Positions 6,301-61,819 of a stretch of 64,000 bases of DNA are shown here, piece by piece. Source of the stretch: Geosiphon pyriformis uo1 (lineage: Eukaryota; Fungi; Glomeromycota). The position numbers and the translations under genes were made by a program. Position 1 is the first letter of the stretch, and each line of letters opens with the position of its first letter. The notes beneath the pieces are model-generated. The model saw only the letters and a program-made list of their open reading frames with translations, did not search any database and was not told where the DNA came from. The stretch lies in NCBI GenBank assembly GCA_016748015.1, contig JAAOMT010000647.1, forward strand, positions 190,880 to 254,879, written 5' to 3'.

Positions 6301-7819
6301 AAATAACAGTTCTAGCTCTATTCAAATTGGCAATAAAAATATCAACGATCTGAACTCCAATTCAAACTCTGAAATATCTATTGCCCTTCCTGACCTTTCC
6401 AAAGAGCAGGAACTCAAATGGTATAATGACAATGATAAAAGGTATCATGCCAGAACAGACACATAATATTAATGCAAGGTTTGATCTAAGATATCCAAGA
6501 AAAAAAGCCATAAAATTGGAACCACATTTGCATACATGTATTAATCTCAAAATAGCACTGGAAATTCCAGCAACAACAATGGTTCAATTAGCATTTAGAA
6601 GTAGCTTAGCAAAAAAAGGAATTAACATCAAAAGAAGAATAATTGATGCAGAATATGTGAGAAATATTATTGCTATGCTACAAAACAATTCAGAAAAAGC
6701 CTATATTATAGAACCAAATGAAAAAATAACACAGACAATATTCTTACCTCTGATGAAAATAGCCCAGTTAGTTTTAGTGAAAAAAAAAGAAAAATTAGGG
6801 ATCACAGCTAAAAAAATACAGAAATTTAGATCAACAGGTAGAATAGATATACTAGTCAATATGACAAAAGAAAAAATTGTTGATAAAAGAAAAATTATCT
6901 CAAACCATCAACCAATTTCCATTCCATCATATGACCAGTATATGTTAGCTATAAAAAGAGAAATAAAAGATTGAGCTCAATTGTTTGAAACAAAAGCCAC
7001 TATTTGTGAATTAGGAGAGATTGGACTCACTAATCTCTACATATCAGCCAAAAGCCCCAAAAACATCAAAATTCCCATCTACAACACAACTGGAAAGGTT
7101 ATCAAAATACCAAAGAGAACTATTATTGGATATTTAACTATTAAAGTTGAAGATCAACCACCAAACCACATTCCAGATTTTCTACAACTGTGTGGATACG
7201 TGGATATTACATTACAAACAATCTACAGATAAGAAGAATGTTATCTGCTCCAGCCAGAACAATTAGAACAAATGAATTTGGGAAACTTAGACCCACTTCA
7301 ACAAATGCAACTTAAGATGTTACTCAATAATTTCAATGACATCTTTGCAAGTGAAAATGAATTTGGCAGAACTGGCATAATTCAGCATCAAATCAAGACT
7401 GGAGATACAATGCAATAAAACAAAGAGCATACAGAATACCACCAGCCAGCCATGAAATTATTTGTCAAGAGATCAATCAAATGCTTGACAATAGGCTAAT
7501 TCAGCCATCAATGAGCCCATAATCATTACCAATGATACTGGTCTATAAGAAAAATGGGAAAATCCATTTTTGTGTAGATTACCGAAAACTGAATAGAGTA
7601 ACAAAAAGAAACAGCTACCCAACTCCAAAAATTCAAGAGCTGTTCAACGCTTTCAGTGGAAAGAAATAGTTTTCAATATTGGATCTAAACAGTGGCTACT
7701 AGCAAGTAGCCATAAAGCCAAAAGATAAAGAGAAAATGGCTTTCACAACACAAAAAGAGAATTTCGAATTCAAAGTAATGCCATTTGGCTTAATGAATGC
7801 TCCAGCAATATTTCAAAGG

Positions 7820-17040: not shown

Positions 17041-17072
17041 CTGTAAGATTATACCTCACAGGAAGCACCAAA

Positions 17073-17911
17073 TGTTATAGGTGATTATTTCTGCTGTTGA
17101 ATTAAATAACAAACCCGTAACTTGGTGCTCAAAAGCTACTTCTGTTGATAATATTCTGTAAGTGTTGTATCTGAAAGGTTTTGATGGAGTCTTTTGTATA
17201 ATAGACAGAGATTCAATAGTTGTTTTATCCATAGCTTCCCAGACTCACAAGTCTGTCAATTTTTTTCTTGGCTTGGTGGCCGGCAATCCTCTGGTAAGTA
17301 ATCCATATCTTCTGTATGTGTCCTACCCACTCACAGGAGTCTTTTACCAGGCAATCCTTGACATCAGTAATCAGCGCTTTTAATTAATTGGTTAGTACCC
17401 AATACAAAATCATAGAAAATAAAGAAAATAAAAAAATCTAAAGAAATAAGCCAAGGCGATTTGCAAATTAGTATCCCATCAATAGCCATGATCAAGAGCT
17501 ATTGTTCCAGCGTGGTTTTAAGTATCAATTACTATCAACATGAAGTGCTAATAGTGAGGAGTAGATTGAGATATAAAATAATTATTTATTTGAGAATTGT
17601 GTTTCTGAGTTAAGGATTCTGTCATATCGATTCTGTTTTTTCTGTTTCTAATATTACTACTATATATACATAATTGAGATTTCTCAATTCCTCAATTCTT
17701 CATGACAGGAATTCTGAAATTCCTGGAATCCTGTAATTCCTTTGAGAGAAATTCTGGAATTCTGGAATCCTGCAATTCTTCATTGGAGAATCCTCAAATT
17801 TCTGGAATTTTGCAATTCCTGAAAGGAATCCTGGAATTCCACATTTACTATGCCTACTTCTGATTGGCTAATAATTATGCTAATATATTTCCTATATTTC
17901 TATGAGTAACA
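17073..17911 (-). repeat. 5' LTR of element C (U3 type beta)
   Basis: Followed on the minus strand by PBS TTTGGTGCTTCCTGTGAGG (17054-17072). Confidence 0.93.
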
Positions 17912-20772: not shown

Positions 20773-21658
20773 TGTTACTCATAAAAATATAGGAAATATA
20801 TTAGCATGATTATTAGCCAATCAGAAGTAGGCGTAGTAAATGTGGAATTTCAGGATTCCTCTTAGAAATTGCAGGATTCCAGGAATTTTAGAATTCCCTG
20901 ACGAGGAATTACAGGATTCCAGAATTCCAGGATTCCTCTCAAAAGAATCGCAGAATTCCAGGAATTTCAGGATTCCTGTCATGAAGAATCGAGGAATTGA
21001 GGAATCTCAATTATGTATATATAGCAGTAGTGTTAGAAACAGAAAAAACAGAATTGATACGACAGAATCCTTAGCCCAGAAACACAATTATCAAATAAAT
21101 AATGATTTCATATCTCAATCCACTCCTCACTATCAACACTTCATGTTGATAGTAATTGATACTTAACCATGCTAAAACAATAGCTCTTGATCATGGCTAT
21201 TGACAGGATACTAATCTGCAAATCACCTTGGCTTATTTTTTTTATTTCATTTTCTTTTCTTTCTTTTCTTTTCTTTTTTTTCTTTGTGTTGTTTTGTTGT
21301 TGTATACTAATTGATTAAAAGATTAAGCACTGAGTTATTAATGTCAAGAATAGCCTGGTAAAAGACCCAGAAATAAGGGTAGAATTTTATATATTATCAG
21401 ATAACTTACCAGAAAGGCACAACTGCCAGACTAAATCTGGCCACCATGCTGAGAAAAAAATTGGAAAAACTCTTGGAAAGATACATCTACTATCGACACT
21501 ATTGAATCTCTGTTTATTATACAAAGAACTTAACCCAAAACCTTCAGATATCAAAACCTTCAGATTACCAATACCAATATCCACATTAAGATAGCTTTTG
21601 GAGCACCAAGTTACAGGTTTGTTATTTAATTTCACAGCAGAAATAATCACCTGTAACA
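20773..21658 (+). repeat. 5' LTR of element D (CCAAT box AGCCAATCAG ~20815, GGAATTCC-type repeat array 20844-21005, TATA ~21016)
   Basis: TGTTAC..GTAACA termini; motifs seen directly. Confidence 0.93.
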
Positions 21659-21690
21659 TTTGGTGCTTCCTGTGAGGTATAATCCTACAG

Positions 21691-24600: not shown

Positions 24601-27600
24601 AGAAGCATGGAGTGAGGATGAACTAAGTAAATCAACCACCAAGTGGACCTGGGAAGAAAAGTGAAAAGGGAAAAAAAAAGAAGACGACCAACCACCAAGC
24701 ACTAATTCAGCTCATATCCCATACTCTACACTGCCACAAACAGGATACTATCGACCCAAACTGGTATGTGTCAGTTGTAGTAAGAAATTGTCAACAATGG
24801 GCGCATGCTGTAGTAAGGACGAAGAATAGACAACAGCAACTGAATACTACTGTCGCCCATGCATCCTTGAATGTGATGGACAACTGCCAAAAATGGGAAA
24901 ATGGGACGGTATCTTGTGTCTAGCCTGTGGAAAGACTCTTTTGGATGAAGAAATGTGGAAAAACATTCCTGGAAGAGGGGAAGCATACAACAAAACATGC
25001 TAATACACGATCCTAATCAATGACTGGATATGAAAGGGAACTCCAATCAACAACGCCTGGAAGCAAACATTAAGGCGCCTAGAAGGATACCCACACAACA
25101 AAGATGAGATCTGGAGAATGGCATATGTTATGTCTGAAGGTGCTACAACAGAGAAGCTAAGAGAAATTAAGGACAACCCACTATCATTGCCAAAACCAGA
25201 ATACATCCAAATGTTTGACATCTTTGGCAACATTAAGGATGACCCAGAAGAGTTTCACGAACACTACCAGCGACTAGCATCCACAAGAAAAGAACAAGAA
25301 GAACATTTAGCACAGCTAAACACTCAATTATGTGACCACTGTTTGATTCTATGTGACTTCCAATATTGTAATGAGTGTAACCTTATCTATAATCCACCAC
25401 AATGCATAATCTACATGATTCCCAAAGAGAAAGAACCAATCAGCAGCTGCACATCAGAATTGGAATCACTGCTCAATTCTGATTCAAATTCTGACAATAA
25501 TGATAACAACAATGGTTTAAGCTCTGTTCAAAATAGCAATGACAATGACAATGATTCCAACTCAGATCCAAACTCCAATACAAACTATGAACAATATATT
25601 GTACTACCAAATCTTTTTAAGGAGCAGAAGTTGAATTGGTATAGTGACAAGAGGGAAGGTATCATGTCAGAACACACACATGATACTGATGCAGGGTTTG
25701 ATCTGAGATACCCAAAAAAAGATGCCATCAAATTAGAACCACATTCACACACCTGCATTGATCTGAAAGTAGCACTAGAAATTCTAACAACAACAATGGT
25801 TCAATTAGCATCTAGAAGTAGTTTAGCGAAAAGAGAGATTAATATAAGAGGAGGAATAATTGACATGGGATATGTAGAAAATATCATCACTATGCTACAA
25901 AATGACTCAGAAAAGACCTATATAATAGAACCCAACAAAAAGATAGCACAGACAATATTCTTGCCTCTGGTTAGAGTAGCTCAGTTAGTATCAGTAGGAA
26001 AGAAGGAGGAATTAGGAATAACAACAAGAGAAATACAGGGATTCGGGTCAACAGGTAGAATAGATGTACCAGTTAATATGGTGGAGAAAGAAATTATTGG
26101 CCAAGGAGAAATTATCTCAACCGGTCAAGCTATTTTCATTCCATTATATAGTCAGTACATACTAGCAATAGGAAGGAAAAAAAAGGAGCAAGGACAGATT
26201 TTTGAAGCTGAAGCAAACCTTTGTAAATCAGGAGAGATTGGGTTGATCAATCTCCACATACCAGCCAAAAGCTATAGTAGCATAAAAATTCTCATCTACA
26301 ACAATACTGGCAATGTCATCAACATACCAGAAGGAACCACCATCGGATATTTAACCACAGAAATAGAAGACCAACCACCAAATCCCATTCCAGACTTTCC
26401 ACAACTTTGTGAATATGTTGATATTACATTACAAACAATTTATGGATGAGACAAATGTTATTTGCTTCAACCAGAACAATTGGAACAAATGAACATGGGA
26501 AACTTAGATCCACTCCAATGTATGCAGCTCAAGATGTTACTCAACAATTTCAATGACATCTTTGCCAGCGAAAATGAGTTTGGCTGAACTGACATCATCT
26601 AGCATCAGATCAAAACTGGAGATGCAATGCCAATTAAACAAAAAGCATACAGAGTACCGCCAGCCAGCCACAAGATCATTTGTCAAGAGATAAACAGAAT
26701 GCTTAACAATGGGCTAATTCAACCATCAATGAGCCCATGGTTATCACCAGTAGTACTCATCTGTAAAAAGAATAGAAAAATCCAATTTTGTGTAGACTAC
26801 AGAAAACTCAATAGTGTAACTCGTGGAGACAGTTATCCAACTCCACAAATACAGGAATTATTTGATGCTTTTGGTGGGAACAAATGATTCTCAACATTAG
26901 ATTTGGACAGTGATTACTGGCAAGTAGCTATGAATCTGGTTGACAAAAAGAAGATGGCATTTACTACTAAAAAAGAGAATTTTGAATTTGAAGTGATGCC
27001 ATTTGACTTAACCAATGCTCCAGCAACTTTCTAATGGCTAATGAAAATCATTTATATTGACTTATTGTGGAAATCAGTAGTTGTATACTTGAACAACACC
27101 AATGTATTCTCAAAAATGTTTGATAATTATCTTCATTATCTTCAACAAGTGTTCAAAAGACTAAGAAGAGCAGGACTAAAATTAAATACAACAAAGTGCT
27201 TCTTTGGCAAAACAGAACTAAAATTCTTGGGACACATAGTCAGCAAAAATGGCATCAAAACGGATCCGGAGAAAATAGAGATAATAAAGAACTTTCAAGT
27301 ACTGACCAATATGACAGAACTGAAATCATTCTTGGGATTTGCCAGCTACTATCAACATTTTATCAAGAACTTCTCCAAGATAGTGCAGCCACTCAACCAA
27401 CTGCAAAACAAAAATACAAAATATGAATGGACAGAAAGTCAACAAAAAGCTTTTGATATTCTGAAAAAAAAGCTCATCCAAACTCCAGTACTGATCTATC
27501 CAGATCACAGCAAACTATTCATCATTACCACTGATGCATCCAGCCAAGCATTAGGAGCAGTACTATTTCAGAGAAGACCAGACGGCAGAGAACATCCAGT

Positions 27601-38999: not shown

Positions 39000-39867
39000 T
39001 GTTACTCATAGAAATATAGGAAATATATTAGCATAATTATTAGCCAATCAGAAGTAAGTATAATAAATGTGGAATTTCAGGATTCCTCTCAGGAATTGCA
39101 GGATTCCAGGAATTTCAGAATTCCCAATAAGGAATTGCAGGATTCCAGAATTCCAGAATTCCTCTCAAAGGAATTGCAGAATTCCAGGAATTCCAGGATT
39201 CCTGTCATGAAGAATTGAGGAATTGAGGAATCCCAATTATGTATATATAACAGTAGTGTTAGAAACAGAAAAGACAGAATCGATACCACAGAATCCTTAG
39301 CCAAGAAACAAAATTATCAAATAAATAATTATTCCATATTTCAATTCACTCTCCACTATCAACACTTTATGTTGATAGTAATTGATACTTAACCACACTG
39401 GAACAATAGCTCTTGATCATGGCTATTGATGGAATACTAATCTGCCAAACTGCCTGGGCTTATTTCTTTTCTTTCTTTATTTTCTTGTATTTTCTTTTCT
39501 TTATTTTATTTGATTTGATTGTTATGTATTCTAATTGATTAAAAGATTAAGCACTGAGTTATTGACGTCAAGGATAGCCTGGTAAAAGACCCAGAAATAA
39601 GGATAGGATTTTATATATTATCGGATAACTTACCAGAAGAACATGGCTGCCAGACTAAATCCAGCCACCATGCTGAGAAAAAAATTGGGAAAACAACTTA
39701 AAAATACAACTACTATCAACCTTATTGAATCTCTGTCCATTATACAAAGGACTCAACCAAAACCTTCAGATAACAATACCTTCAGAACATCATCAATGGA
39801 ACTAGCTTTGAGCACCAAGTTACAGGTTTGTTATTTAATTCAACAGCTGAAATAATCACCTGTAACA
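39000..39867 (+). repeat. 5' LTR of element F
   Basis: TGTTAC..GTAACA termini, CCAAT box, beta repeats, TATA ~39242; followed by the PBS. Confidence 0.93.
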
Positions 39868-42800
39868 TTTGGTGCTTTCTGTGAGGTATAATCCTACAGA
39901 GAACCAGCACCAACAACACCAAACCAAAAGTGACAGAATCAGAAACCATAGGAGCAAACCATTTAGGATTTGCGAAAGCCCTATTTCAACACTATTGTTA
40001 ACACTTGGGATTAAACCACAATCATATATCCGCCGAATCAGCCTTTAACTTCTATGTCAATAAAAAGATTTTCTCTTTGTTAGGAACACCAGTGAATACT
40101 GAATCAGCCAGGGAAACTTTCTACAGAGAATTAATTCAAAATACCAACCTGCCAACAAATCACAATTTTGCTTCTATCATTACTGAAATCAACAAAAAAA
40201 TTGAACATCACACCCAACAAAGATATCCAATTACTTATGCCAGTAAAGACAAAGGGAAACTACAAATACCAGCAGTAACACCCAAAAGGATACAACCACC
40301 CACTTAGAAGAAAACAAGAATTAAATTACCAACTGACCCATCCTATCACTACACACTGGGAAGCGCCATCAATATAACATTAGCAAGCGCGTCCATATCA
40401 AACGTAATATCAACATTCAGATAACTCCCATTCCAAAGTAAACAAAGGAAAACAGATCTATTAGGACTATACGGCGAATATTTTGAGAGATTTAAATCAC
40501 AATCATCAACCCCATCAGGAATTCAATCACTGCTGCCTCAACTGGACTTTGGAACTGCTACCCCATGGAAACTATTTGAAGAAGAAGAGGAAGAAGAATT
40601 GGAAGATCAAGAATTTACTTACCAAAACCCGATCACTGAAAGCCCGGAAGTTGAAACCCCGAATCTTCAAGCTCAGCAAAATTTAAATATAGAAAATTCA
40701 GAAATCAAAACTCCAAATCAACAAAGGCAGAACAATTCAAACCCCGAATTAATTAATCAGCAAAACTTACCTCCGGTAATCGTCATCAATCAACCGCCAA
40801 TTAATCCAGTAGCCGAATCCATACAGCAGCCATTTCAACTACCACCCCAACAACCAGAACAACAACAACAACTGTTTCAACAGCCACCACAACAACCCAA
40901 CTTAGATCCAATGACCTATGCACCAATCGCAAAACTTGACAACTTTACTAACGAAGAGGATAACACTCAGGTATAGCTGAATGATGTAGAAAAGGCCATT
41001 GCAGCCAATGGATGGAATAACGCTTAAGCAATGCAAGCTATTCCCTACTTTTTCAAGAATACTGCTAATTCATGGTACCAGAGCTTGATTAATAAACCAC
41101 AAGATTTTAATGCCTTCAAAGCAGAATTCCTAAGATACTTCAGCAACAATAACAGTATCAATCGCCTAGTCAACACATTCACCACCATAAAACAAGGAGA
41201 AACGGAAGCTGTTACCACTTACCTGGGATGCTTCCATTGAAATTTGTGCCAAATTCAAGCAATTGACGCCAACTATTTCACAGCACCACAGATACTCAAT
41301 CAGTTTATCCGTGGTCTGTGCAGCAGCATCTTGCAACATGTACGTCTGTTGCATCCAGGTACTCTTCAAGACACAGTTACACGCATCAGAAATTTTGAAT
41401 CTGCTGAGTCAGAGGCTAATCATGCCCAAGCCATTAATCTAGTAATGAATAGATCATCTGAATTGGATTCCAAATTGGAGAAGTTCAGTAAATCAATTAA
41501 TAAGAGATTAGAAGGATACTTAGCTGACAATCATGCCATTTATCAGTCTCTACAATGATGCAATAATCAAGGAAACTCTAATCGTGCCCAAAATCAACCA
41601 CATCCATCTTCATTGACCAATCAACAGTGGCAACAGAAAACGTGTATCTGCCACTATTGTGGTAAACAAGGACATATCCAAATTGACTGTTACCAGTGTC
41701 TAAATAACCAACAATCGGAAAATCAATATCAAAACCCCAATTGCCAGTTCTAAACTCCAAATCATTATCCAAATCAGAGTCAAGACCAATATCAAAATAA
41801 TTACCTGCCAATGATGCAGCAACCAATTTATCAACTGCCAGTATATCAACCTCTGATTTATCAGCCGCAGCCACAAGTAATATATCAACCACAGCCACCA
41901 ATCATCTATCAACTCCAACCAATTCAAATACTGCTCCAGAACCCAGCTCAAATGACATCAGGCAACCCTCGATCCAGAGTCACTCAAAACTGGAGATTGG
42001 CAATAGTTGTTCACCAACCGATCTCCAGTTCGCTAAACTCACCATCAGGATTACACATCTGGAATTTGGATACCAGTTGCATCCAAAACCCAAATTTCCA
42101 ACACTATTTAAGTCTTCTGGTTAACCCAGAAGACACCACATCCCACAACACGGAATTCAATCAGCATGTACTTTCCAACACAATTCCACCAGCAACCATC
42201 TCTAGCAACGAATCCCTAGCAGCTATCTTTCCTTTTGAACTCGAAGAAAACACACCGATACCGTTATTCAGTAGAGCTGTCCTCAAAGAGAAATCTATAA
42301 CAGTAATGTACATGGATGCCAGAGTTGATAGTCACCCCATCAAACTCATCCTAGATAGTGGATCAGCTGGCAGTATAATCACAAGACAACTTATAGATCA
42401 ATTAGGTCACCGAGTTGATCGAGCTGCCAGCACTAGAATCATCACTGCCAATGGCACCACAAAAACACCTATCAGTGAGATAGATGATTTCCTTATAGAA
42501 ATTAACAGCATCATAGTACCCATCAAAGTTCTAGTAATAGACGCCACCCAATACCAAGCCCTAGTCGGTAATGACTGGCTGTCCAAAACCAATGCTGTGT
42601 TTGATTGGATGACCCAAAAGTTAATACTCAGCCAGAATGGAAGACACACACGAGTACCAGCAATGTGTGGCCATTTCAAGGCTACCAACAACACGGTACC
42701 ACTAATTGACTTTAATAAAGAGAAACCGAAACCTACCTGAGAAGCCTACCAAGTGTCGTGGGCTGATGAAGAGCACAATGAACTGCCACCAATACTCCCC

Positions 42801-45463
42801 TGAGACAACAACAACAAGGAAAAAGGGAAACAAAAGGAAGAACTTACCTGGAAAACTAATGACCTGACATGAACCAACAACAATGAGAGTGAACTGACTT
42901 TAAGCTGGGAATGGGAAGAAGACAAAGAAAATAAAGGGAAAGGAAAAGAAAAAGAGACCACCTAAACCACCACCACTTATAACACCTACACTATACCACA
43001 ACGATCTACCTATTGTCAACCTAAGCTTATATGCATTAATTGCGGCAAGAAATTGTCATTAATAGGTGCATGCTGTGGGAACAATGAAAAATATTCAACG
43101 GCAACTAGGTTTTGTTGCCGCCCATGCATTCTTGAATGCTTTGGAAGACCAAAACGAGTAGGGAAATGAGACAACCAGCCATGCTTAGCTTGTGGAAAGA
43201 CTCTATTGGACGAAAGAATATGGCATGACATTCTTGGATGTGGAGGAATGTGCGACGTATTGTGTTAATACACAATTCTGATCAATGACTGGGTTAAAAA
43301 AAAAACACCAATTGAAGCTACTTGGCAAAGAGCAGTACAATGATTAGACAGTTGTCCACATAACGACGACAAAATTTGGAGAATGGCAACTGCAAAAATT
43401 AAAGGCGCATTGCCAGAAGAAATCTGAACAATTAAAAACAACTCACCAGAACCCATCGAGCTTGACTGGGATGCAGAGCCAGTCATAAATTTTCTGGAAC
43501 CAAAAGAGTTCTATGAATACTACCAAAACTTGGCACCCACTAGAGAAGAGCAAAAACAATGGCTAGCACAGTTAAATACAAGACTGTGTTGCCATTGTTT
43601 AATTCCCAGTGACTTTGAATATTGTGACAATTGTGACCTCATTTACAATTCACCACCATGCATGATCTACTCGATCCCTGAAAAAGAAAAACCAATCAGC
43701 AGCTGTGCATCGGAATCAGAATTGCTGATCAATTGCAATTCAGACTCCGACAATAACAACGAAAACACCAGTTTCAGCTCTGTTCAAAATGGCAATGATG
43801 ACGAAAATGATTCAAACTCAGATTCAAAACCTAATTTAAACTATGAACAATACATTGTATTACCAAATCTCTCCAAGAAACAAGAGTTGAAATGGTATAA
43901 TAACAATAGGGAAAGTATTATGCCAGAATGTGTGCATGATATGGATACAGAGTTTAATCTGAGATATCCAGGAAAAAATGCCATCAAATTGGAACCTCAT
44001 TCATTCACCTGCATTGATCTGAAAATAGCACTAGAAATTCCAGCAACAACTATGGTTCAATTAGCATCTAGGAGTAGTTTAGCAAAAAGAGGGATTAATA
44101 TAAGAGAAGGAATAATTGATGCAGAATATGTAGAAAATATCATCACAATGCTACAAAATGACTCAGAAAAGGCCTATATAATAAAACCCAATGAAAAGAT
44201 AGCACAGGCAATATTCCTGCCTCTGGTTAGAATAGCTCAGTTAGTATTAGTAGGAAAGAGGGAGGAATTAGGAATAACAGCGAGAGGAATACAAGGATTC
44301 AGATCAATGAGTAGAATAGATGTACCAGTTAATATAACAAAGAAAAAAATTGTTGGCCAAGGAGAAATTATCTCAACCAGTCAAGCTATTTCCATTCTAC
44401 CATATAGCCAGTACATGTTAGCAATAGAAAGGAAGGAAAAGAAGCAAGAACAGATTTTTGAAGCTGAAGCAAACTTTTGTGAATTAGGAGAGATTGGACT
44501 GATCAATCTCCACATACCAGCCAAAAGCTATAGCAGCATAAAAATTCCCATCTACAACAACACTGGCAATGTCATCAACATACCAGAAGGAACCACTATC
44601 AGATATTTAACCACAGAAATAGAAGACCAACCACCAAACCCCATTTCAGACTTTCCACAACTTTGTGAATATGTTGACATCATATTACAAACAATCTATG
44701 GACAAGATGAATGTTATTTGCTCCAACCAAAACAATTGGAACAAATAAACATGGGAAACTTAGATCCGCTTCAATGTATGCAGCTTAAAATGTTACTCAA
44801 CAATTTCAACAATATCTTTGCCAGCGAAAATGAGTTTGGCCAAACTGACATCATCCAGCATCAGATCAAGACTGGAGATGCAATGTCAATCAAACAAAGA
44901 GCATACAGAGTGCTGCCAGCCAGCCACGAGATCATTTGTCAAGAGATAAACAGAATGCTTGATAATAGGCTAATTCAACCATCAATAAGCTTATGGTCGT
45001 CACCAGTGATACTCATCCATAAGAAGAATGGAAAAATCTGGTTCTGTGTAGACTATAGGAAACTCAATAGTGTAACTCGTGGAGACAGTTATCTAACCCC
45101 ATGAATACAGAAATTATTTGATGCTTTCGGTGGGAACAAATGGTTCTCCACATTAGATTTGGACAGTAGTTACTAGCAAGTAGCCATGAATCCAGTTGAC
45201 AAAGAGAAGACAGCATTTACTACTAGAGAAGAGAATTTCGAATTTGAAGTGATGCCATTCAGCTTAACCAATGTCCCAGCAACTTTCCAACAGCTAATGG
45301 AAATCATTTATATTGGCTTATTGTGGAAATCAGTAGTTGTATATTTGGACAACACCAATGTATTCTCAAAGACGTTTGATGATCATTTTCATCATCTTCA
45401 ACAAGTGTTTGAAAGACTAAGAAGAGCAGAACTAAAGTTAAATGCAACAAACTACTTCTTTGG

Positions 45464-46965: not shown

Positions 46966-47011
46966 NNNNNNNNNNNNNNNNNNNNTTTCTTTTTTTTTTT
47001 TATTTTTTTTT

Positions 47012-48544: not shown

Positions 48545-51500
48545 CTAATTTTGCCTCATTCTTGAAAGACAATCAACATTGGTGTGGAGTTTTCCTGATT
48601 TGTGATGTACGATATATTGGTAATTAACTAAAAATCTTGTCCATCGGGTTTGTTTTGCATTCAGCTGGGTGTTTTTGTTTTGAAGCCATTTAAGTCCAAT
48701 ATTATCAGTGATAATATTAAATTTTTTGGGTCTGAGGTAAAGGTTGAAGTGATGTAGGGTCCAGATTACTGCTGCGGTTTCTAATTCTGTTGTGGGGTAG
48801 TTTTTTTTGGCTGGCTTTAATGTTCTATTAGCATAAGCAATTACTTGCTTATTTCCATTGTCATCTAACTGTGATAGGATGGCACCAAAGACAGTATAAG
48901 AAGCGTTAGTTGCTAACCAGAATTGGTTGCTGAAATCTGGGTAGGCGAGGATTGGAGCTGTTGTGAGTTTTTTCTTAAGTATCTCGAAGGCATTTTGGTG
49001 TTCTTCTGTCCATTTGTATTCGACATTTTTAGTAGTGAGCTGGTTGAGGGGTTTTGCAATTTCTGAGAATTCTTTGATGAATTTTCAGTAATAGGATGCT
49101 AATCCAATAAATCCTCTTAATTCTGTGGTATTTCGTGAAGTCTTGAAATTCTTGACAGTACTGATTTTTCTGGGGTCTGGTTTAATTCCATCTTTGCTAA
49201 CAATGTGACCAAGAAAAGCTAAACTTGTTTTTCTGAAGTAGCATTTTTCAATGTTCAGTTTCAATCCTGCTTTCCGTAATTGTTAAAAAACTTCTCGCAG
49301 GTGAATTAAATGTAGCTCGAAAGATGATGAATAAACATCAGTGTCATCAAGATAAACTACTACTGATTTTCAAAGGAGGTCTTTGTAAACAACATCCATG
49401 AGTCTTTGGAATGTTGCTAGTGCATTGCATAATCTGAAAGACATTACATTAAATTTGTAATTTCTTCCTTGAGTAGTGAATGTTGTTTTGGAGTGGTCTT
49501 TGGGATCCATAGCAACTTGCCAGTATCCACTTTCTAAATCTAATGTTGAAAAGTATTTGGACTTTCCAAGGGCATCCAACATGTTATCAATTCGGGGAAG
49601 AGAATAGGCATCCTCAATGGTGACACTGTTGAGTTGTCAGTAATCAACACAAAATTATATCTTTCCATTTTTCTTTTTAACTAAGACCACAGATGAGGCC
49701 CATGGGCTCATTGATGATTGAATAAGCCCATTGTTAAGCATTCATTGTACTTCTTCTCAGATAAATTGGTGACTTTCTGGGGCAACTCAATAGGCTTGTT
49801 GTCGCCTTGGTTTGGCATTTCTTGTATAGATTTGGTGTTGAACCAAATCAGTTCTTCCTAAGTTATTGTTGTTTTCGGCAAAGATGTCAGTAAATTCTGC
49901 AATTAGCTCTTTGAGCTGGGTCTGTTGTTGTGGTTCAAGTTGTTCCATGTTAATTCGAGATAGTTTTTCTATGACAACATGGTAGTTTTCGAAGCTGGGA
50001 TTTGAGTTGGTTTTTGGTATTAAATGTCCAATAATTTCAGAGAAATCGGGAATTATTTGGGGTAATTTTTGTTGAAATATATTACTGTGAATAACTCCAA
50101 TTTCTAAATTATTTAATAAAATTATGGGGTAATTATTGGGGTTGTAAAAAGTAACTTGGACTTTCTTTGTTCCTTCTGGAATATAAATGTTTGGGATCAA
50201 AATATTATGTTCTAAGCAGACTTGTTCATTGGACTCAAAAATTTGTTGTGTGGTTGTTGGCTTTGAGCAGATGTAGATTTCCGGATATTCTCCAAAGGGT
50301 AAGATAGTAATCAGTTGTGGAAGTCTGAGAATCTGGTGGGATTCATTCTATGTGTTAAGAGCTATATTAATTGGAACTGTGAATCATCCAGTTGAACCAA
50401 AACCTTGGGTTCCTCTATCACTTTTTCCTAATTGTTCTCTTTGATTGACTAGTTGCAAACCCGAAATGTTGATTAAGGGTAGGTAAATAGCTTGGGCAAT
50501 TTTTTCAACATGTTCAATCTTGACTGGTTTGTCAGTTTCATTTTGAAGCATCACTGTTATGTCTCCAATATATCCAGCATTGATTATTCCTCTTCTGACA
50601 TTGATTTCTTTGCTTGCCAGAGAGGACCAGGAGGCGATTTGAACCATTGCTCTTGGCGGGATTTCAAGTGCAATTTTGAGGTTGATTTTTGTGTGAAATT
50701 TGGGTTTGAGAACAAGAGTATCCTTGCCTGAATATCTTAGGTCATATCCAGTATCAATTTCGTGTGCTTTTTCAGGTTTTATTCCTTGTCCATTGTTGTT
50801 GAAGTATTTAAGTTGTAAGGCAAGCTGATTTTCGATAAGGTAGATGGGTGTTGTTTCAATTTCTTCCGTTTTTTCAGGTTCTCCAAATTTAATTTCATTC
50901 TCATCATTTTCGCTGGGCAAGGGGATACTAAGAGCATAGCATTCAGGACACTATTGTTCATTGCAAGGCATAATGCATTCTTCACATAGTTTAATGTTCA
51001 TTTGCTCTAATCATTGAATTTAAGCTTTTTGGGTCGGGTAGGTGTAACTTGCAATTTGGTGGTAGACTTTTACTTCATCTTTGTAATCGAATCCAGCTAA
51101 TTCCATAGTGTATTCAATGTATTCTGCTTCCTTCATTTGACGGACATCTTCCTTGGTAGCTCCATTAATTAATGCCATTGCTAAGTCGAAAATCATCTTG
51201 GCATCATGAGGGTAGTGATAAAGTTTGTTGAGAGCACTGTTGTATGCTGCATTAAAAGGTGTTCCTCTTTTTACTTTTTCTGAAATTGATAAAACATATT
51301 GACAGGTCTGATCGCAGACGCCTCCTCTCATTGCTACATCAATCCAATTGCATTCTTTTGGTAGCATATCTCCACAAGTCAAACAAGAGATGTTGTCCCA
51401 TTTTCCGCTCTTTTTTATTAGATGGCCCCATTACTCTCTGTGGCAAGCCTTGCAATAATAACAAGTATAATTCTCATATTCTTCTTCAGGTAAAATGCAG

Positions 51501-54161
51501 GCTCCCATTAACGATAGTTTCTTGTGACAGTTCTTACATTTAAGGAGAATATAGGGGCATTGTTTCCTTGGTTCGGGTTTTGAGTAAGATATATTCCATC
51601 CAGAGGTTTCGGGTTTAGTGTGTGGGGTAAAATATTCTTGTTCTGTTTTATCGGCCCAGTTGGACGTTGATCCAAGAGCCATGAATGTTTCGATTATTGA
51701 TTTTTTTTCTTCTGGTTCAAATTTAAAAGCTGGGACTTTTTCAGAGCATTTGTTGAATATACCACAAATGACAGGTACCCGGGCATGTTGTCCTTGGTAG
51801 GAGATTGTTAACTCTTGTGTTTTCCAATTCAGATTAGCATTGGCTTTTTGAAGCCAATCATTTCTGACAAGAGCTTAGTACTGGGGTGCATCCATTACAA
51901 GAACTTTGACTGGAATGGTGATTCCATCAAGAGTAAACGGAAAATTGTCAATTTCTTCTACTGGAGTCTTTTTCATGCCATCAGCAGTAACGATTACTGT
52001 TTGAGCTGGTCAGTCGACATTTCTTTTCAACTGTTGCATTAACTGGTAGGTGATAATGCTTCCGGCGGATCCACTGTTTAGGATCAAGCGAATTGGCTTT
52101 CCTTCTACTTCAGCTTCTGTGTATATTGCAGTGATGGCTTTTTGCTCATTAGCCACTGCATTGCTAAGCAAGAATGGTGATTCATTTGCTCCAAATTCGA
52201 AAGGAAAGATATCAGAGAGATTGGCGTTTTCAGCAATTCAGGCTGGTGGAATAGTGATGTGGTTATGAGAAGGGTTTTGTTGTTGTTGTGCTGCAGCTCT
52301 ATCTTCCGAGAGTGCAGTATGGTGAAAATCTTGTTCTTCCAGCATTGTTAAATAACTGGGTTGAGTGTGGTAGTAGTTGGGTCTTGGTTGAGTGGTATTT
52401 TGGAGAACCAATTGGTTGTTCAAACTGATTCTACTGTTGTTTACTTGGTATCAGTTTTGTGGTGTAAATTGATTTTGTGTAATCAGTCTTTGAGTAAGTA
52501 CTTGATAATGTTGTGTGGGTGGTTGTTGGTATTGCTGTTGGATTGGTTGTGGGGCGGGCTGATAATAGTTATTTTGGTATTGGGGTCTTGGTGGATAGTA
52601 AGCTAGTGGTGATGGTTAATAATAAGATTGCTGTGGTGGAGAGTAACATTGATTACCCCTATTTTGTTGGTCTCGTTGTAGCTTTCTACAATCTCTTTTT
52701 CAGTGGCCAGAGATTCCACAGTAATGGCAATTCTGAGGCTGGTTATTGGAAAGTGGTGCAAAGTTATTTTGATTTTGTCTTTGGGGTGGTTGATATCTTT
52801 GTTGTTGTTGGTTGATAAAATAGTTTTCGACCTTCTTTGTGAGTTGGTCAATTTTTTTCTCAGCTGCTGAGCTGGTTTCTCCAATTGCCAAATTTACAAG
52901 TTTTGTATGATTGGTCTCTTTCATGGCCATTTTGTATCTTTTCGCATGCTGTATGACAGAGTTTAAATCTTCTGGCGCGTGTGGGTGAACTTTTTTAATT
53001 AGTTTATCTTTTAGACCAGCGATAAATTGATCCAAAATTTGAGCATCAGAATAATAATCGTTTGTCTCGAGTTGGCAAATCCATCTGAGAAGTTTGTTGA
53101 ATTTTCCAATATAAGTTATAACAGATTCGGAGGGTTCTTGTTTGATATTTCGAAAACAATTACAAAGAGTAATAGAGGTATTATTGTCAGTGAACTGTTC
53201 AAGGAAGGCTGCTTTGAAAGCATTCCAATCATTGAATGGGGCAGCCAGGGTTTCAAACCATTTTTCTGCTGTTCCTTTGAGAAAGTATGGAATTGTTCTT
53301 AACATTCTGGTGGCATTCCATCCATTTGCATCTCCGGCTTTAGTAACTTGGTTGAGCCATTCTTGAGGACTGGTCTCAATGTCTTCTCCATTAAAATCAG
53401 GGATTTTTGTGATGTATGTTGTTATTTCATCTTCTTCGTTTTCACTGTCTATTGATTCTTCTTCAGTTATTTCAGAGTTGTTTTTTTTGTTTGCTGCTGT
53501 CTCAGAGTGTTCACTTTGATTTTCAGCTAGAAAATCAAGGAGATTGGAACTAGTTTGAAGGGGTTTTTGTTGTCTGGTGGGACTTCTGAGTGATGTAAAA
53601 TCTTCTGGTCTTGCAAATCAATTCAAAGGTGAATTAGGTGTTTGTGCTTATGCAAGTAAAGCTGGAAAAGGTGTGATAGTAAGTGGAAGTTTTGAGCTGG
53701 TTCCTTGTTCAGGTGTTTGTAGATGTTTGAATGATTTTTTGGGAGTATTGGGTGTTGTGTGAACAGGTCGGTTATCTTTTTGTCTTTTGTTGCTACTGGT
53801 TTCAGGTTCAGATTCGAGTTCAAAGGCAAATTGTGCATTTGCAGAATATTTTTCTTTACAGAATCAAATGATATTATAATTGAGTTCCTCAAAATAAGTA
53901 GTGCAAGCTTCAGCACTAATGTTTTCTAATTCAGTGTTGGAATAGTGTAGTATGTTCTCAAGAAAATTTCTTTTAACTGTTGTAATGTTATAGTTCCTAA
54001 AGAGGTAGTTGTTGATTCAATTTTCGATGTATTAAAAAAGTGTTTTCTTAAAAGCTATGATTCCATCACATATTTCAAATTGTTGTTTACAGTGTGTATA
54101 AATCGATTGATAGTACTCTAAAGTTGTAATGTCTGGGGCGGTCACCACTTTGAATTTGTTG
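48545..54161 (-). pseudogene. Element H ORF1 gag-PR-Cys-rich-dUTPase-RT-RNaseH
   Basis: Capsid 52700-53305 ending in knuckle CHYCGISGH; protease LILNSGSAG; dUTPase DTGYDLR..RGTQGFGSTG (50384-50790); RT YLDD ~49345; RH ATNAS..GAIL. Confidence 0.92.
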
Positions 54162-54190
54162 CTGTGTTATTTCCATGGGAGAGCACCAAA

Positions 54191-55175
54191 TGTTACTGGA
54201 GGTTTTTGGTCTCTTTTCTGTAATGTTGTTGATACTTATTTGCTGTGAATTCACGTTTTCTGGATGTGGTTGAACCTCCAGTAACTGAATTTTTAACTTC
54301 AAATTATCTCCTATAATTTGAACTTGCTGGGCTTATAAGTGGAATGGCCAATTCTGTGCCAGTTGCTTTATATAGTTACATTGTAGTAAATGTCAACTCT
54401 TTCCCAGGAATTGCTCGTCTGGGAGCTCACTAAAAATGTATAGTTACTTTGCTGTGAAAGTCAACTCTTCTACAGGAATCTCGTCTGTAGGCTACCCTAA
54501 TGATTGTAATAAGAAAAGAAAAGAAAAATAAAAGAAATGTAAAAAAAATAGGATTTTATCAAGAGAAACGTTTTCTATCCAGGCCTGGAGTTACTAACAG
54601 TCTACTGAAATTGGTAGCTAATCAATTTCGAAATGTTAGTTGGGTTTTTGGGGATTTTCTAAGTACAATAATTAAAGAATTTGGTTTTTCAAATTATTTG
54701 ATATTTATTTCTTTTTGTGTATATAGGAACGTTTTTAAGAGATAAATCTAAAGTAAGATACATTTTCTCGAAAAGAGAAGCTCTTCTTTTATACAACTTG
54801 TCATAACACTATTCTATGAACTTGAACTTTTGCTATTTTCTACAATTTCACTGAACTAAAGATACATTTTGGCAAACTACAAGTTATTTCTGCAAACTAT
54901 TAGATATTTTGGTGAACTATCAATTATTTTGGCGAATTTCTATAAATTTCGGCAAACTTTTGAATGTTACATAGTTCAGGGTATTGCATGATTAATCATT
55001 GCAATTAGGTTACATTTGTGTTGTGTACAATTTGGGTTATTAATTAAATGATAATTTCAGACATTCTTTGCTAATGTAATAAGTGATAATTTGAAACGAT
55101 AATATATGCTAATTAATGATAGGAATTATAAGATAGTTTCATGCTAAATGATATCTCTAATTTTGTCTGGTAACA
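54191..55175 (-). repeat. 5' LTR of element H
   Basis: Followed by the PBS on the minus strand. Confidence 0.93.
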
Positions 55176-57994: not shown

Positions 57995-58822
57995 TGTTAT
58001 TCATAGAAATATAGAAAATATATTAGCATAATTATTAGCCAATCAGAAGTAAGTGTAGTAAATGTGGAATTCCAGGAATCCTTTCAGAAATTGCAAGATT
58101 CTAGGAATTTCAGGATTCCCAATGAGGAATTGCAGGATTCCAGAATTCTAGGATTCCTGTCGTGAAGAATTGGGGAATTGAAGAATCCCAATTATGTATA
58201 TATAGTGGTAGTATTAGAAACAAAAAAGACAGAATCAATACCACAGAATTCTTAGCCAAGAAACAAAATTATCAAATAAATAATTATTTCATATCTCAAT
58301 TCACTCTTCACTATCAACACTTCATGTTGATAGTAATTGATACTTAACTATGCTGGAACAATAGCTCTTGATCACGGCTATTGACAGAATACTAATCTGC
58401 CAAACTGCCTGGGCTTATTTCTTTTCTTTCTTTATTTTCTTGTATTTTCTTTTCTTTATTTTATTTGATTTGATTGTTGTGTATACTAATTGATTAAAAG
58501 ATTAAGCACTGAGTTATTAACATTAAGGATAGCCTGGTAAAAGACCCAGAAATAAGGGTAGGATTTTATATATTATCAGATAGCTTATCAGCAGGGCACA
58601 ACTGCCAGACTAAATCTGGCCACCATGCTGAAAAAGAAATTGGGAAAACAACTTAAGAATACAACTACTATTAACCTTATTGAATCTCTGTTCATTATAC
58701 AAAGGACTCAACCAAAACCTTCAGATAACAATACCTTCAGAACATCATCAATGGAACTAGCTTTGAGCACCAAGTTACAGGTTTGTTATTTAATTCAACA
58801 GCCAAAATAATTACCTGTAACA
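57995..58822 (+). repeat. 3' LTR of element F
   Basis: Follows PPT AAAAGGAGGGAATAA; colinear with 39000-39867. Confidence 0.93.
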
Positions 58823-60847: not shown

Positions 60848-61819
60848 ATGTAGAAGTTGAAGGCAAATTCTGTTAATAGTTGGTTGTTGATTAATTCTAA
60901 ATGTTAATAGTAGTATTAAAATAGGAATTTGGCAAATCCAAAATGGTTTGTTCCCTTTCTTTCTGATTCTGTCATTTTGGACTGATTGTTGTTGGTGCTG
61001 GTTCTCTGTAGAATTATATTTTACAGAGAGCACCAAATATTACAGTTGATTATTTGGGGTCTCAAATCAAATAACAAATCCATAACTTGGTACTTAATAG
61101 TGGATATGATTAGTGATATTTGAAGGTTTTGGTATCTGAAGGATTTGGTTAAGTTCTTTGTATAATAGACAGAGATTCAATATTTGTCTTCAATAGTCTT
61201 TCAGAATTGCAATTCTATCAATTTTTTTCTCAGCTTGGTGGCTAACAATCCTTTGATAAGTAATTCTTAATTTCAAGTATTTTACTCTCTTGCTTGGGGT
61301 TTTTTACCAAGCAATCCCTAACATCAATAATTAGTGCTTAATTTTTAATCAATTAGTATACAACAATAAACAGAAAATAAAAAAAAGAAAAGAAAATAAA
61401 AAAATTAAAGTCAAAGCAATTGATATTAGTATTCTGTCAATAGCCATAATCAAGAGCTATTGTTCCAGTATAGTTAAGTATGGGTTACTATTAACATGAA
61501 GTATTGATAGTAAACAATTGGATTAATATAATTAATAAGTATATTTATTAATAGTGTGAATGTATAGATACTAACTAGGAAGTAAAACTCAAATGTCTGT
61601 CTTTTTTGTTTCTAATGTTACCACTATATATACATAATTAAAATTCCTTAATTCTTTAATTCTTTACATCAAGAATCCTGCAATTCTTTATACAAGAATC
61701 CTATAATTCTGGAATTCTGCAATTTCTTTAAAAGAAATCTTGAAATTCCCTATTTACTATGTCTATGTCTAATTGGCTAATTTATATATTAATATAATTT
61801 TTATATTTTATAAATAACA
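60848..61819 (-). mobile_element. Family-1 element I 5' end: LTR 61038-61819, PBS, start of gag (probably the same copy as E)
   Basis: Minus-strand LTR, then TTTGGTGCTCTCTGT, then RTSTNNNQSK..NHFGFAK..FAFNFY. Confidence 0.85.

What the first reader, a model, noticed from the sequence alone, without database searches (positions are those of the whole stretch)
39826..39899. Constant 74-nt candidate intron that would excise the LTR end and the PBS
Seen: donor-like CAG|GTTTGT in U5 and acceptor-like CTACAG| just after the PBS, exactly 74 nt apart in F (39826-39899), D (21617-21690), C (17041-17114), B (1098-1171) and I (61006-61079). The donor is decayed to AT in B and I. ORF1 is closed by a TGA inside the PBS and is open from the acceptor onward. 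In F the splice would fuse the LTR frame (..LALSTKLQ) in frame to RTSTNNTKPK... Family-2 H also has an in-frame stop followed by CACAG just after its PBS (54162-54169). Inference: spliced RNA would be a PBS-less mRNA and unspliced RNA the genome, separating translation from reverse transcription. Caveat: I could not find a conserved upstream start codon.
Basis: partly seen in the sequence, partly recalled or inferred. Interest (0 to 1): 0.75.

Follow-up and report, generated by a model that had tools for sequence, protein, structure and literature searches.

The report
GUG-started Gag in fungal retrotransposons
The proposed intron ends lie in and just past a conserved hairpin at the start of a fungal jumping gene, and its first protein likely begins not by splicing but at an unusual GUG start codon, with a kilobase nearly free of AUG codons that would let ribosomes also reach a second, normal start at the capsid.

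Summary
The window is a nest of decayed Ty3/Gypsy LTR retrotransposons whose named protein relatives are all from the fungus Geosiphon pyriformis. The 74-nt GT..AG pair is there in 3 of 5 copies (AT..AG in 2), but the donor G is no better kept than an average G, and it sits inside a conserved 24-bp hairpin that pairs U5 with the LTR end and the primer binding site. The in-frame fusion is not conserved: the U5 side carries frameshifting indels and the acceptor-to-ORF1 spacing varies. No RNA run was listed, so splicing is untested. ORF1 has another likely start. Protein conservation begins at a GTG in an AAA-GTG-GC context, at the same position in two families only 19% identical. The next ~1 kb is coding but has about 3 ATG per kb against 22-25 downstream, and ends at a conserved ATG at the capsid. 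Best reading (0.65): GUG initiation gives an N-terminally extended Gag and leaky scanning gives a short capsid Gag, as in rice tungro bacilliform virus and PEG10. A 5'-UTR intron that removes the PBS remains possible (about 0.2). New variant of a known kind.

The parts
39000..39867 (+). 5' LTR of element F (TG...CA), 93% identical to its 3' LTR at 57995-58822, 4-bp target duplication
39238..39325 (+). TATA-like box (39238-39251) and AATAAA (39320-39325); would place the RNA start about 580 nt before the LTR end (inferred)
39369..39392 (+). 7-codon upstream ORF, the only ATG fixed in the leader; contains a GT donor-like site at 39378
   Evidence: ATG, length and stop kept in 11 of 12 LTRs (the 12th is truncated here); GT in 9 of 12
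   Evidence: TACTAA 11 of 12, AAG 12 of 12, tract 78-91% pyrimidine
39810..39836 (+). 5' arm of the U5/PBS hairpin: anti-PBS segment plus complement of the LTR end; holds the proposed donor (39826)
39837..39849 (+). hairpin loop, differs between subfamilies
39850..39876 (+). 3' arm of the hairpin: LTR end and first bases of the PBS
39870..39887 (+). 18-nt primer binding site, complement ends in CCA like a tRNA 3' end; holds the in-frame TGA (39882-39884)
   Evidence: tRNA geometry recalled; isotype not found
39924..39935 (+). proposed non-AUG start: GTG at 39930 in CCAAAA-GTG-(G/A)CA; equivalents D 21721, B 1203, C 17010 (GTA), I 60975 (ATG)
39930..40910 (+). AUG-poor coding extension of gag: predicted five-helix domain (~100 aa) plus acidic and Q/P/N-rich linker
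40911..40913 (+). first conserved in-frame ATG, at the start of the capsid (Retrotrans_gag/Ty3_capsid) region
54146..54290 (-). family-2 element H: 13-bp U5 inverted repeat with G|GT in its 5' arm, PBS (54188-54171), CACAG, and GTG at 54148 in TTCAAA-GTG-G
53425..54148 (-). family-2 AUG-poor extension, homologous to that of family 1; capsid start codon ATA in H, Met in relatives

Best explanation
The 74-nt stretch covers most of a conserved U5/primer-binding-site hairpin of a fungal Ty3/Gypsy retrotransposon, and gag likely starts without splicing at a GUG codon 30 nt past the AG, with an AUG-poor kilobase that would let most ribosomes scan on to the AUG at the capsid. Shown: the hairpin complementarity, the non-coding indel pattern of U5, the coding pattern and ATG scarcity from the GTG on, the GTG and its A(-3)/G(+4) context in two families, the ATG at the capsid. 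Inferred: initiation at GUG, leaky scanning, two Gag forms (long, with a helical N-terminal domain; short, capsid only), and a role of the hairpin in priming. The GT is part of the arm that pairs with the ACC of the LTR end, and the TGA is likely fixed by the primer tRNA.
For: Hairpin: z -3.97, -5.33, -3.91, -1.47, -3.76 in F, D, C, B, I; 97% of 232 cells paired; purine/pyrimidine swaps 2 in 27 and 1 in 18 arm columns against 24 in 13 loop columns; family 2 has its own 13-bp U5 repeat. Start: near-invariant columns begin at K-V-A; the two families (19% identical, HHalign 92.7%, E 4e-7) align K-V-A on K-V-A; this Val column has V 111, M 1, I 0 of 116 and V 100, M 8, I 0 of 113, while all 9 other Val-majority columns show Ile, so the codon is GTG, the rarest Val codon in the window (13 of 106); window codons GTG in F, D, B, H, GTA in C, ATG in I. 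Frames upstream of it differ: 83, 15 and 5 of 120 models in three frames, three frames in family 2 (15, 6, 5). ATG: 3 in about 1 kb in each of F, D, C (Markov expectation 12.2, 11.4, 8.8) against 94-109 in the next 4.3 kb; 0 of 950 against 43 of 4217 triplet columns shared by all three; H 4 in 723 nt against 99 in 4300. Met 39 of 19,146 against 145 of 11,474 residues; capsid start M 61, I 14 of 75. Coding: 13 of 15 indels are multiples of 3; AlphaFold pLDDT 82 from residue 3.
Against: No transcript, ribosome or protein data. All copies are decayed and come from one host, so counts are not independent. The extra copies are computer gene models, whose upstream peptides may hold predicted splices or assembly indels. 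No compensatory pair changes within family 1 (covariation 0.092 against 0.096 shuffled). Third-position bias is modest (for example 32/26/52 in F against C). GTG may have been more common before decay than the 13 of 106 seen now. ATG scarcity would also fit a weak spliced AUG start. Both families do have a G|GT in the 5' arm and a CAG after the PBS, which the intron idea predicts.
Confidence: 0.65

Rival explanations
1. The 74-nt stretch is a real 5'-UTR intron. Splicing would remove the PBS and the 3' arm of the hairpin, giving a scannable, non-primable mRNA that still starts at GUG; the hairpin would hide the donor and keep some RNA unspliced as genome. This can coexist with the best explanation.
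For: GT is the likely original state in both subfamilies; +5 G in 11 of 12 and +6 T in 12 of 12 LTRs; AG in 5 of 5; G|GT in 3 of 3 family-2 LTRs with CACAG 114 nt on in H; 9 of 84 gene models use this donor (predictions only).
Against: Donor -3..+2 predicted at least 90% paired in F and D; no pyrimidine tract or CTAA-type branch motif in the 74 nt, unlike 39458-39551; GT and YAG expected by structure and chance; ORF1 does not need it.
Confidence: 0.2
2. A longer splice supplies an AUG: the donor inside the 7-codon uORF (39378) joins the AG at 39899 (522 nt), giving M-L-I fused in frame to ORF1 and also removing the PBS.
For: The uORF ATG is the only fixed ATG in the leader (11 of 12); the join is in frame for F, D, C, I; one gene model, P0012, reads exactly so; rice tungro bacilliform virus fuses a leader uORF to a distal ORF by splicing (PMC5902531 passage).
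Against: Out of frame in B and in the 15 and 5 models with other spacing unless a different AG is used; must skip the stronger acceptor at 39551; family 2 has no fixed leader ATG except one near the presumed RNA start; does not explain the shared AAA-GTG-GC.
Confidence: 0.09
3. One reading: the splice fuses a coding frame of the LTR in frame to ORF1.
For: In F and its 3' LTR that frame is open for about 60 codons and has ATGs.
Against: The frame is closed or shifted in the other LTRs; those ATG columns also show ACG/ACA/AAG, as expected from CpG decay; 9 of 65 U5 indels are multiples of 3.
Confidence: 0.03
4. The anti-PBS segment is a Tf1-like self-primer: an RNA starting at about 39810 folds onto the PBS and is cut to prime reverse transcription.
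For: 8 pairs with the PBS continue straight into the U5 stem; chromoviruses prime from a 5' hairpin (PMC3601003 passage).
Against: The PBS is a full 18-nt tRNA-like site in both families; family 2 has no anti-PBS; TATA-like and AATAAA motifs put the RNA start about 500 nt further upstream.
Confidence: 0.03

Closest known systems
Rice tungro bacilliform virus pregenomic RNA (PMC5902531; passages and section 10 read)
   Same: Reverse-transcribing element; short uORF and leader hairpin, then a non-AUG start (AUU, about 10% use), then about 900 nt without AUG to allow leaky scanning to the capsid polyprotein AUG.
   Different: A plant pararetrovirus with separate ORFs and a proven shunt; here an LTR retrotransposon, GUG, one in-frame extension of gag, and the uORF ends about 420 nt before the hairpin, not 7-8 nt.
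PEG10 (PMC2800197; passages read)
   Same: Ty3/Gypsy-derived gag translated from an upstream in-frame non-AUG codon as well as from the AUG.
   Different: Domesticated mammalian gene; CUG; 34 aa extension against about 327 (family 1) and 241 (family 2) codons here.
MLV glyco-Gag (PMC12789967; passage and a reference title naming the CUG start)
   Same: Long and short Gag from one ORF, the long one from a non-AUG codon.
   Different: Retrovirus; glycosylated cell-surface product. The extension here has no Pfam or fold match.
U5-IR stem of Rous sarcoma virus and the Tf1 priming structure (named in PMC3601003 passages; details recalled)
   Same: Hairpin made of U5 and sequence next to the LTR end, at the priming site.
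   Different: Here the 5' arm also carries an 8-9 nt copy of the tRNA end that covers the PBS; priming appears tRNA-type.
Spliced gag RNAs of BARE1, EVD and copia (PMC3735527 abstract; PMC5580714 passages)
   Same: Splicing and separate RNA pools divide translation from reverse transcription.
   Different: Ty1/Copia; introns lie after gag, around the protease, and do not remove the PBS; splicing was shown there and is untested here.

Membership tests
Ty3/Gypsy LTR retrotransposon | Direct LTRs with TG...CA ends and a target duplication | tested here: met
   (F and D: 4-bp duplication; C and H did not show one as computed)
Ty3/Gypsy LTR retrotransposon | gag, protease, RT, RNase H, then integrase | tested here: met
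   (D: dUTPase 25034, RT/RNase H 27035, integrase 28445; Ty3_capsid in C and H)
Ty3/Gypsy LTR retrotransposon | PBS after the 5' LTR, purine tract before the 3' LTR | tested here: met
tRNA-primed element | PBS matches a host tRNA 3' end | tested here: inconclusive
   complement ends in CCA and looks like a T arm; no host genome; 3 metagenome hits were not tRNA genes
Spliceosomal intron (74 nt) | GT...AG ends | tested here: met
   3 of 5 copies
Spliceosomal intron (74 nt) | Ends conserved beyond their neighbours | tested here: not met
   donor G 9 of 12, mean G 0.77; decayed copies make this a weak test
Spliceosomal intron (74 nt) | Branch point and pyrimidine tract | tested here: inconclusive
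   none evident by eye; the host's intron consensus was not available
Spliceosomal intron (74 nt) | Junction reads | not testable with these tools
Non-AUG start with leaky scanning (RTBV/PEG10 type) | Conserved near-cognate codon in strong context at the edge of coding conservation | tested here: met
Non-AUG start with leaky scanning (RTBV/PEG10 type) | AUG scarcity in all frames up to a conserved downstream AUG | tested here: met
Non-AUG start with leaky scanning (RTBV/PEG10 type) | Two products shown by mutation or profiling | not testable with these tools
   needs experiment
Pararetrovirus ribosome shunt | Short uORF ending 5-10 nt before the large stem | tested here: not met
   uORF ends at 39392, main hairpin starts at 39810; only a small local hairpin follows the uORF
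Tf1-type self-priming | RNA 5' end complementary to the PBS | tested here: inconclusive
   complement present in family 1 only and far from the presumed RNA start; start not mapped

The most novel reading that the evidence does not exclude
These elements run a two-layer switch at the LTR/PBS junction: a hairpin that hides both the primer site and a splice donor decides between a primable genome and a spliced PBS-less mRNA, and that mRNA sets the ratio of a long Gag (new helical domain, GUG start) to a short capsid Gag (AUG start) by leaky scanning over a kilobase purged of AUG.
Probability: 0.15. Interest if true: 0.8.

Novelty: new variant of a known kind. Interest (0 to 1): 0.52.

Why it matters
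LTR elements cover 41.2% of the G. pyriformis genome (PMC11952901 passage), and these two families alone give hundreds of gene models (226 and 358 hits). If gag starts at GUG, predictors that demand ATG invent splices at exactly this junction, which is what the varied N-termini of those models look like. A GUG start with a kilobase AUG-free extension would be a pararetrovirus-like way for an autonomous LTR retrotransposon to set the ratio of two Gag forms, and it adds an unplaced helical domain ahead of the capsid. I saw no such case in the listings of ten literature searches, judged mostly by titles and abstract openings in an open-access library.

Tried and rejected
RNA test: no RNA holder listed, so no reads were laid; this is no evidence either way. 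No host genome held, so copy counts rest on 12 family-1 LTRs, 3 family-2 LTRs and 240 gene-model proteins (the best 120 of 226 and 120 of 358). Related loci in metagenomes: 594 pattern hits, none confirmed. Primer tRNA: 3 pattern hits, 0 tRNA genes. Relatives in other species: 260 profile hits; 10 of 10 looked up were G. pyriformis, the rest not named. Pfam: nothing above cut-off for the N-terminal domain. First fold poor (pLDDT 41); second good but no clear match: Foldseek none at E<=0.001, VIA best Z 6.9, rmsd 3.4, 105 aligned; a retroviral matrix fold was not listed, which does not exclude it. Protein atlas could not read the sequence. Earlier findings: none. Covariation in the hairpin not above shuffles. 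Rejected: H's in-frame stop and H's PBS ATG as family traits (relatives read Q and CGG/ACG there); U5 ATGs other than 39369 as starts. Rows dropped: 4 and 7 models without the Val anchor; 45 and 15 without the capsid anchor; one 128-column gap where B is cut by an insertion. The family-2 Met count (50 of 23,358 against 227 of 15,538) is an upper bound, as the anchor put the capsid Met inside the extension in up to 43 models. PMC192114 not held; PMC7828637, PMC12273755 and PMC5009743 passages gave nothing that bears on the claim. No supplements were read.

Full report
Setting. Self-comparison shows nested repeats with 12 related LTR ends. Long frames carry Retrotrans_gag/Ty3_capsid, aspartyl protease, dUTPase, RT/RNase H and integrase in Ty3/Gypsy order. 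Elements F and D have paired LTRs (93% and 92.5%) with 4-bp target duplications. All 240 listed homologues of the two ORF1 N-termini, and 10 of 10 further ones looked up, are Geosiphon pyriformis gene models, so the host is very likely this fungus. All copies are broken by stops.

The observation. The 74-nt spacing is exact in 5 of 5 copies, with GT..AG in F, D, C and AT..AG in B, I. Partner LTRs suggest the AT is later decay. The donor G is kept in 9 of 12 LTRs, the mean for G columns being 0.77, whereas 17 of 27 columns around it are invariant. The bases before it vary as ACA 6, ACG 2, ATG 4, the pattern expected from CpG decay, so CAG| is probably not the original context. A YAG in 43 nt arises by chance 69% of the time. 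No RNA run was listed.

What the stretch is. It folds into a 24-bp hairpin: an anti-PBS segment, a complement of the LTR end and a third helix. Four of 5 copies give z of -3.8 to -5.3; 97% of 232 cells pair. The arms are the same in both subfamilies while the loop differs (purine/pyrimidine swaps 3 in 45 arm columns, 24 in 13 loop columns), and the conserved span runs well past what a donor needs. There is no compensatory covariation within the family. Family 2 has a different 13-bp repeat at the same place (z -2.46). The donor G pairs with the LTR end and is predicted buried. The PBS is 18 nt whose complement ends in CCA; its TGA falls where the T stem of a tRNA would pair (geometry recalled; the tRNA was not identified).

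The fusion does not hold. Lengths from four U5 anchors to the donor take all values mod 3, and LTR pairs share them. Only 9 of 65 U5 indels are multiples of 3, against 13 of 15 inside ORF1 (pairwise to F, not independent). The AG lies 30 nt before the first conserved residue in F, D, C, I and 31 in B. Of 120 family-1 models, 83, 15 and 5 read three different frames there, 13 others, 4 without anchor. In family 2, H's stop is Q in 11 of 120 models and three upstream frames occur.

A likely start at GUG. Conservation starts abruptly at K-V-A. The two families are remote homologues (92.7%, E 4e-7, 19% identity) and align K-V-A on K-V-A. That Val never decays to Ile (0 of 229) but does to Met (9 of 229), unlike all 9 other Val columns, which identifies the codon as GTG; the window has GTG in 4 of 6 copies, GTA in one, ATG in one. 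The residue before is K in 104 of 111 and 92 of 100, the one after mostly A, giving A at -3 and G at +4, the favoured initiation context (recalled). From there to the capsid, F, D and C each have 3 ATG in about 1 kb against 22-25 per kb further on; none is shared by all three, against 43 of 4217 downstream (for F, Poisson p 0.002 against a dinucleotide expectation of 12.2). H agrees (4 in 723 nt, 10.5 expected). Met is 39 of 19,146 residues in the extension and 145 of 11,474 after it; the capsid start is M in 61 and I in 14 of 75 models. The extension is coding, and its first 100 residues are predicted as five helices (pLDDT 82) without a family or fold match.

The leader. Of 22 U5 columns with an ATG in any copy, only 39369 is fixed (11 of 12); it opens a 7-codon uORF of constant length. 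Splicing from 39378 to 39551 would shorten the uORF to four codons in F; splicing from 39378 to 39899 would put its AUG in frame with ORF1 in the 30-nt copies, as model P0012 does. Neither is tested.

Mechanism (0.65). Inferred: ribosomes pass the short uORF and the hairpin (about -26 kcal/mol), a minority start at GUG to make long Gag, the rest scan the AUG-poor kilobase to the capsid AUG. The hairpin likely serves priming, as U5 stems do in retroviruses (named in PMC3601003). A PBS-removing 5'-UTR intron (0.2) can be added to this model but is not needed.

Comparison. It would work like rice tungro bacilliform virus (AUU start after the leader stem, 900 nt without AUG; PMC5902531) and PEG10 (CUG plus AUG; PMC2800197); it is not a member of either. 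The shunt geometry is not met. Known spliced retrotransposon RNAs (BARE1, EVD) cut after gag. Verdict: real sequence feature, intron unproven and fusion wrong, with a better-supported non-AUG start beside it; new variant of a known kind, interest 0.52.

Noticed in passing
window 39458-39551 and the 11 other family-1 LTRs: Pyrimidine tract + TACTAA + AAG inside U5, followed by an in-frame stop for the uORF; a second TACTAA at 39435. Family 2 has a similar tract ending in CATTAG.
   Followed up: partly
window 39369-39392: 7-codon uORF with start, length and stop kept in 11 LTRs while inner codons change between subfamilies.
   Followed up: partly
window 39405-39426: Small hairpin AATAGC...GCTATT just after the uORF.
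   Followed up: no
window 25034-26449, 43428-45104, 50384-50950, 6354-6974: dUTPase domain between the protease and RT in both families, with a weak Spumavirus-protease-like hit after it (E 0.008 and 0.0007), hinting at a second protease-like domain.
   Followed up: no
window 39070-39245: U3 built of near-palindromic GGAATTCC/GAATTGCAGGATTCC repeats with copy-number differences between LTRs.
   Followed up: no
whole window: Almost all 64 kb is LTR element, nested several deep (H in F; C in D; D and others in B); mutations are mostly C to T and G to A, strongest at CpG.
   Followed up: partly
P0050, P0023: Public gene models fuse this ORF1 N-terminus to Argonaute or RRM domains; probably prediction artefacts.
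   Followed up: no
window 46966-46985: Run of 20 N (assembly gap) inside element H.
   Followed up: no
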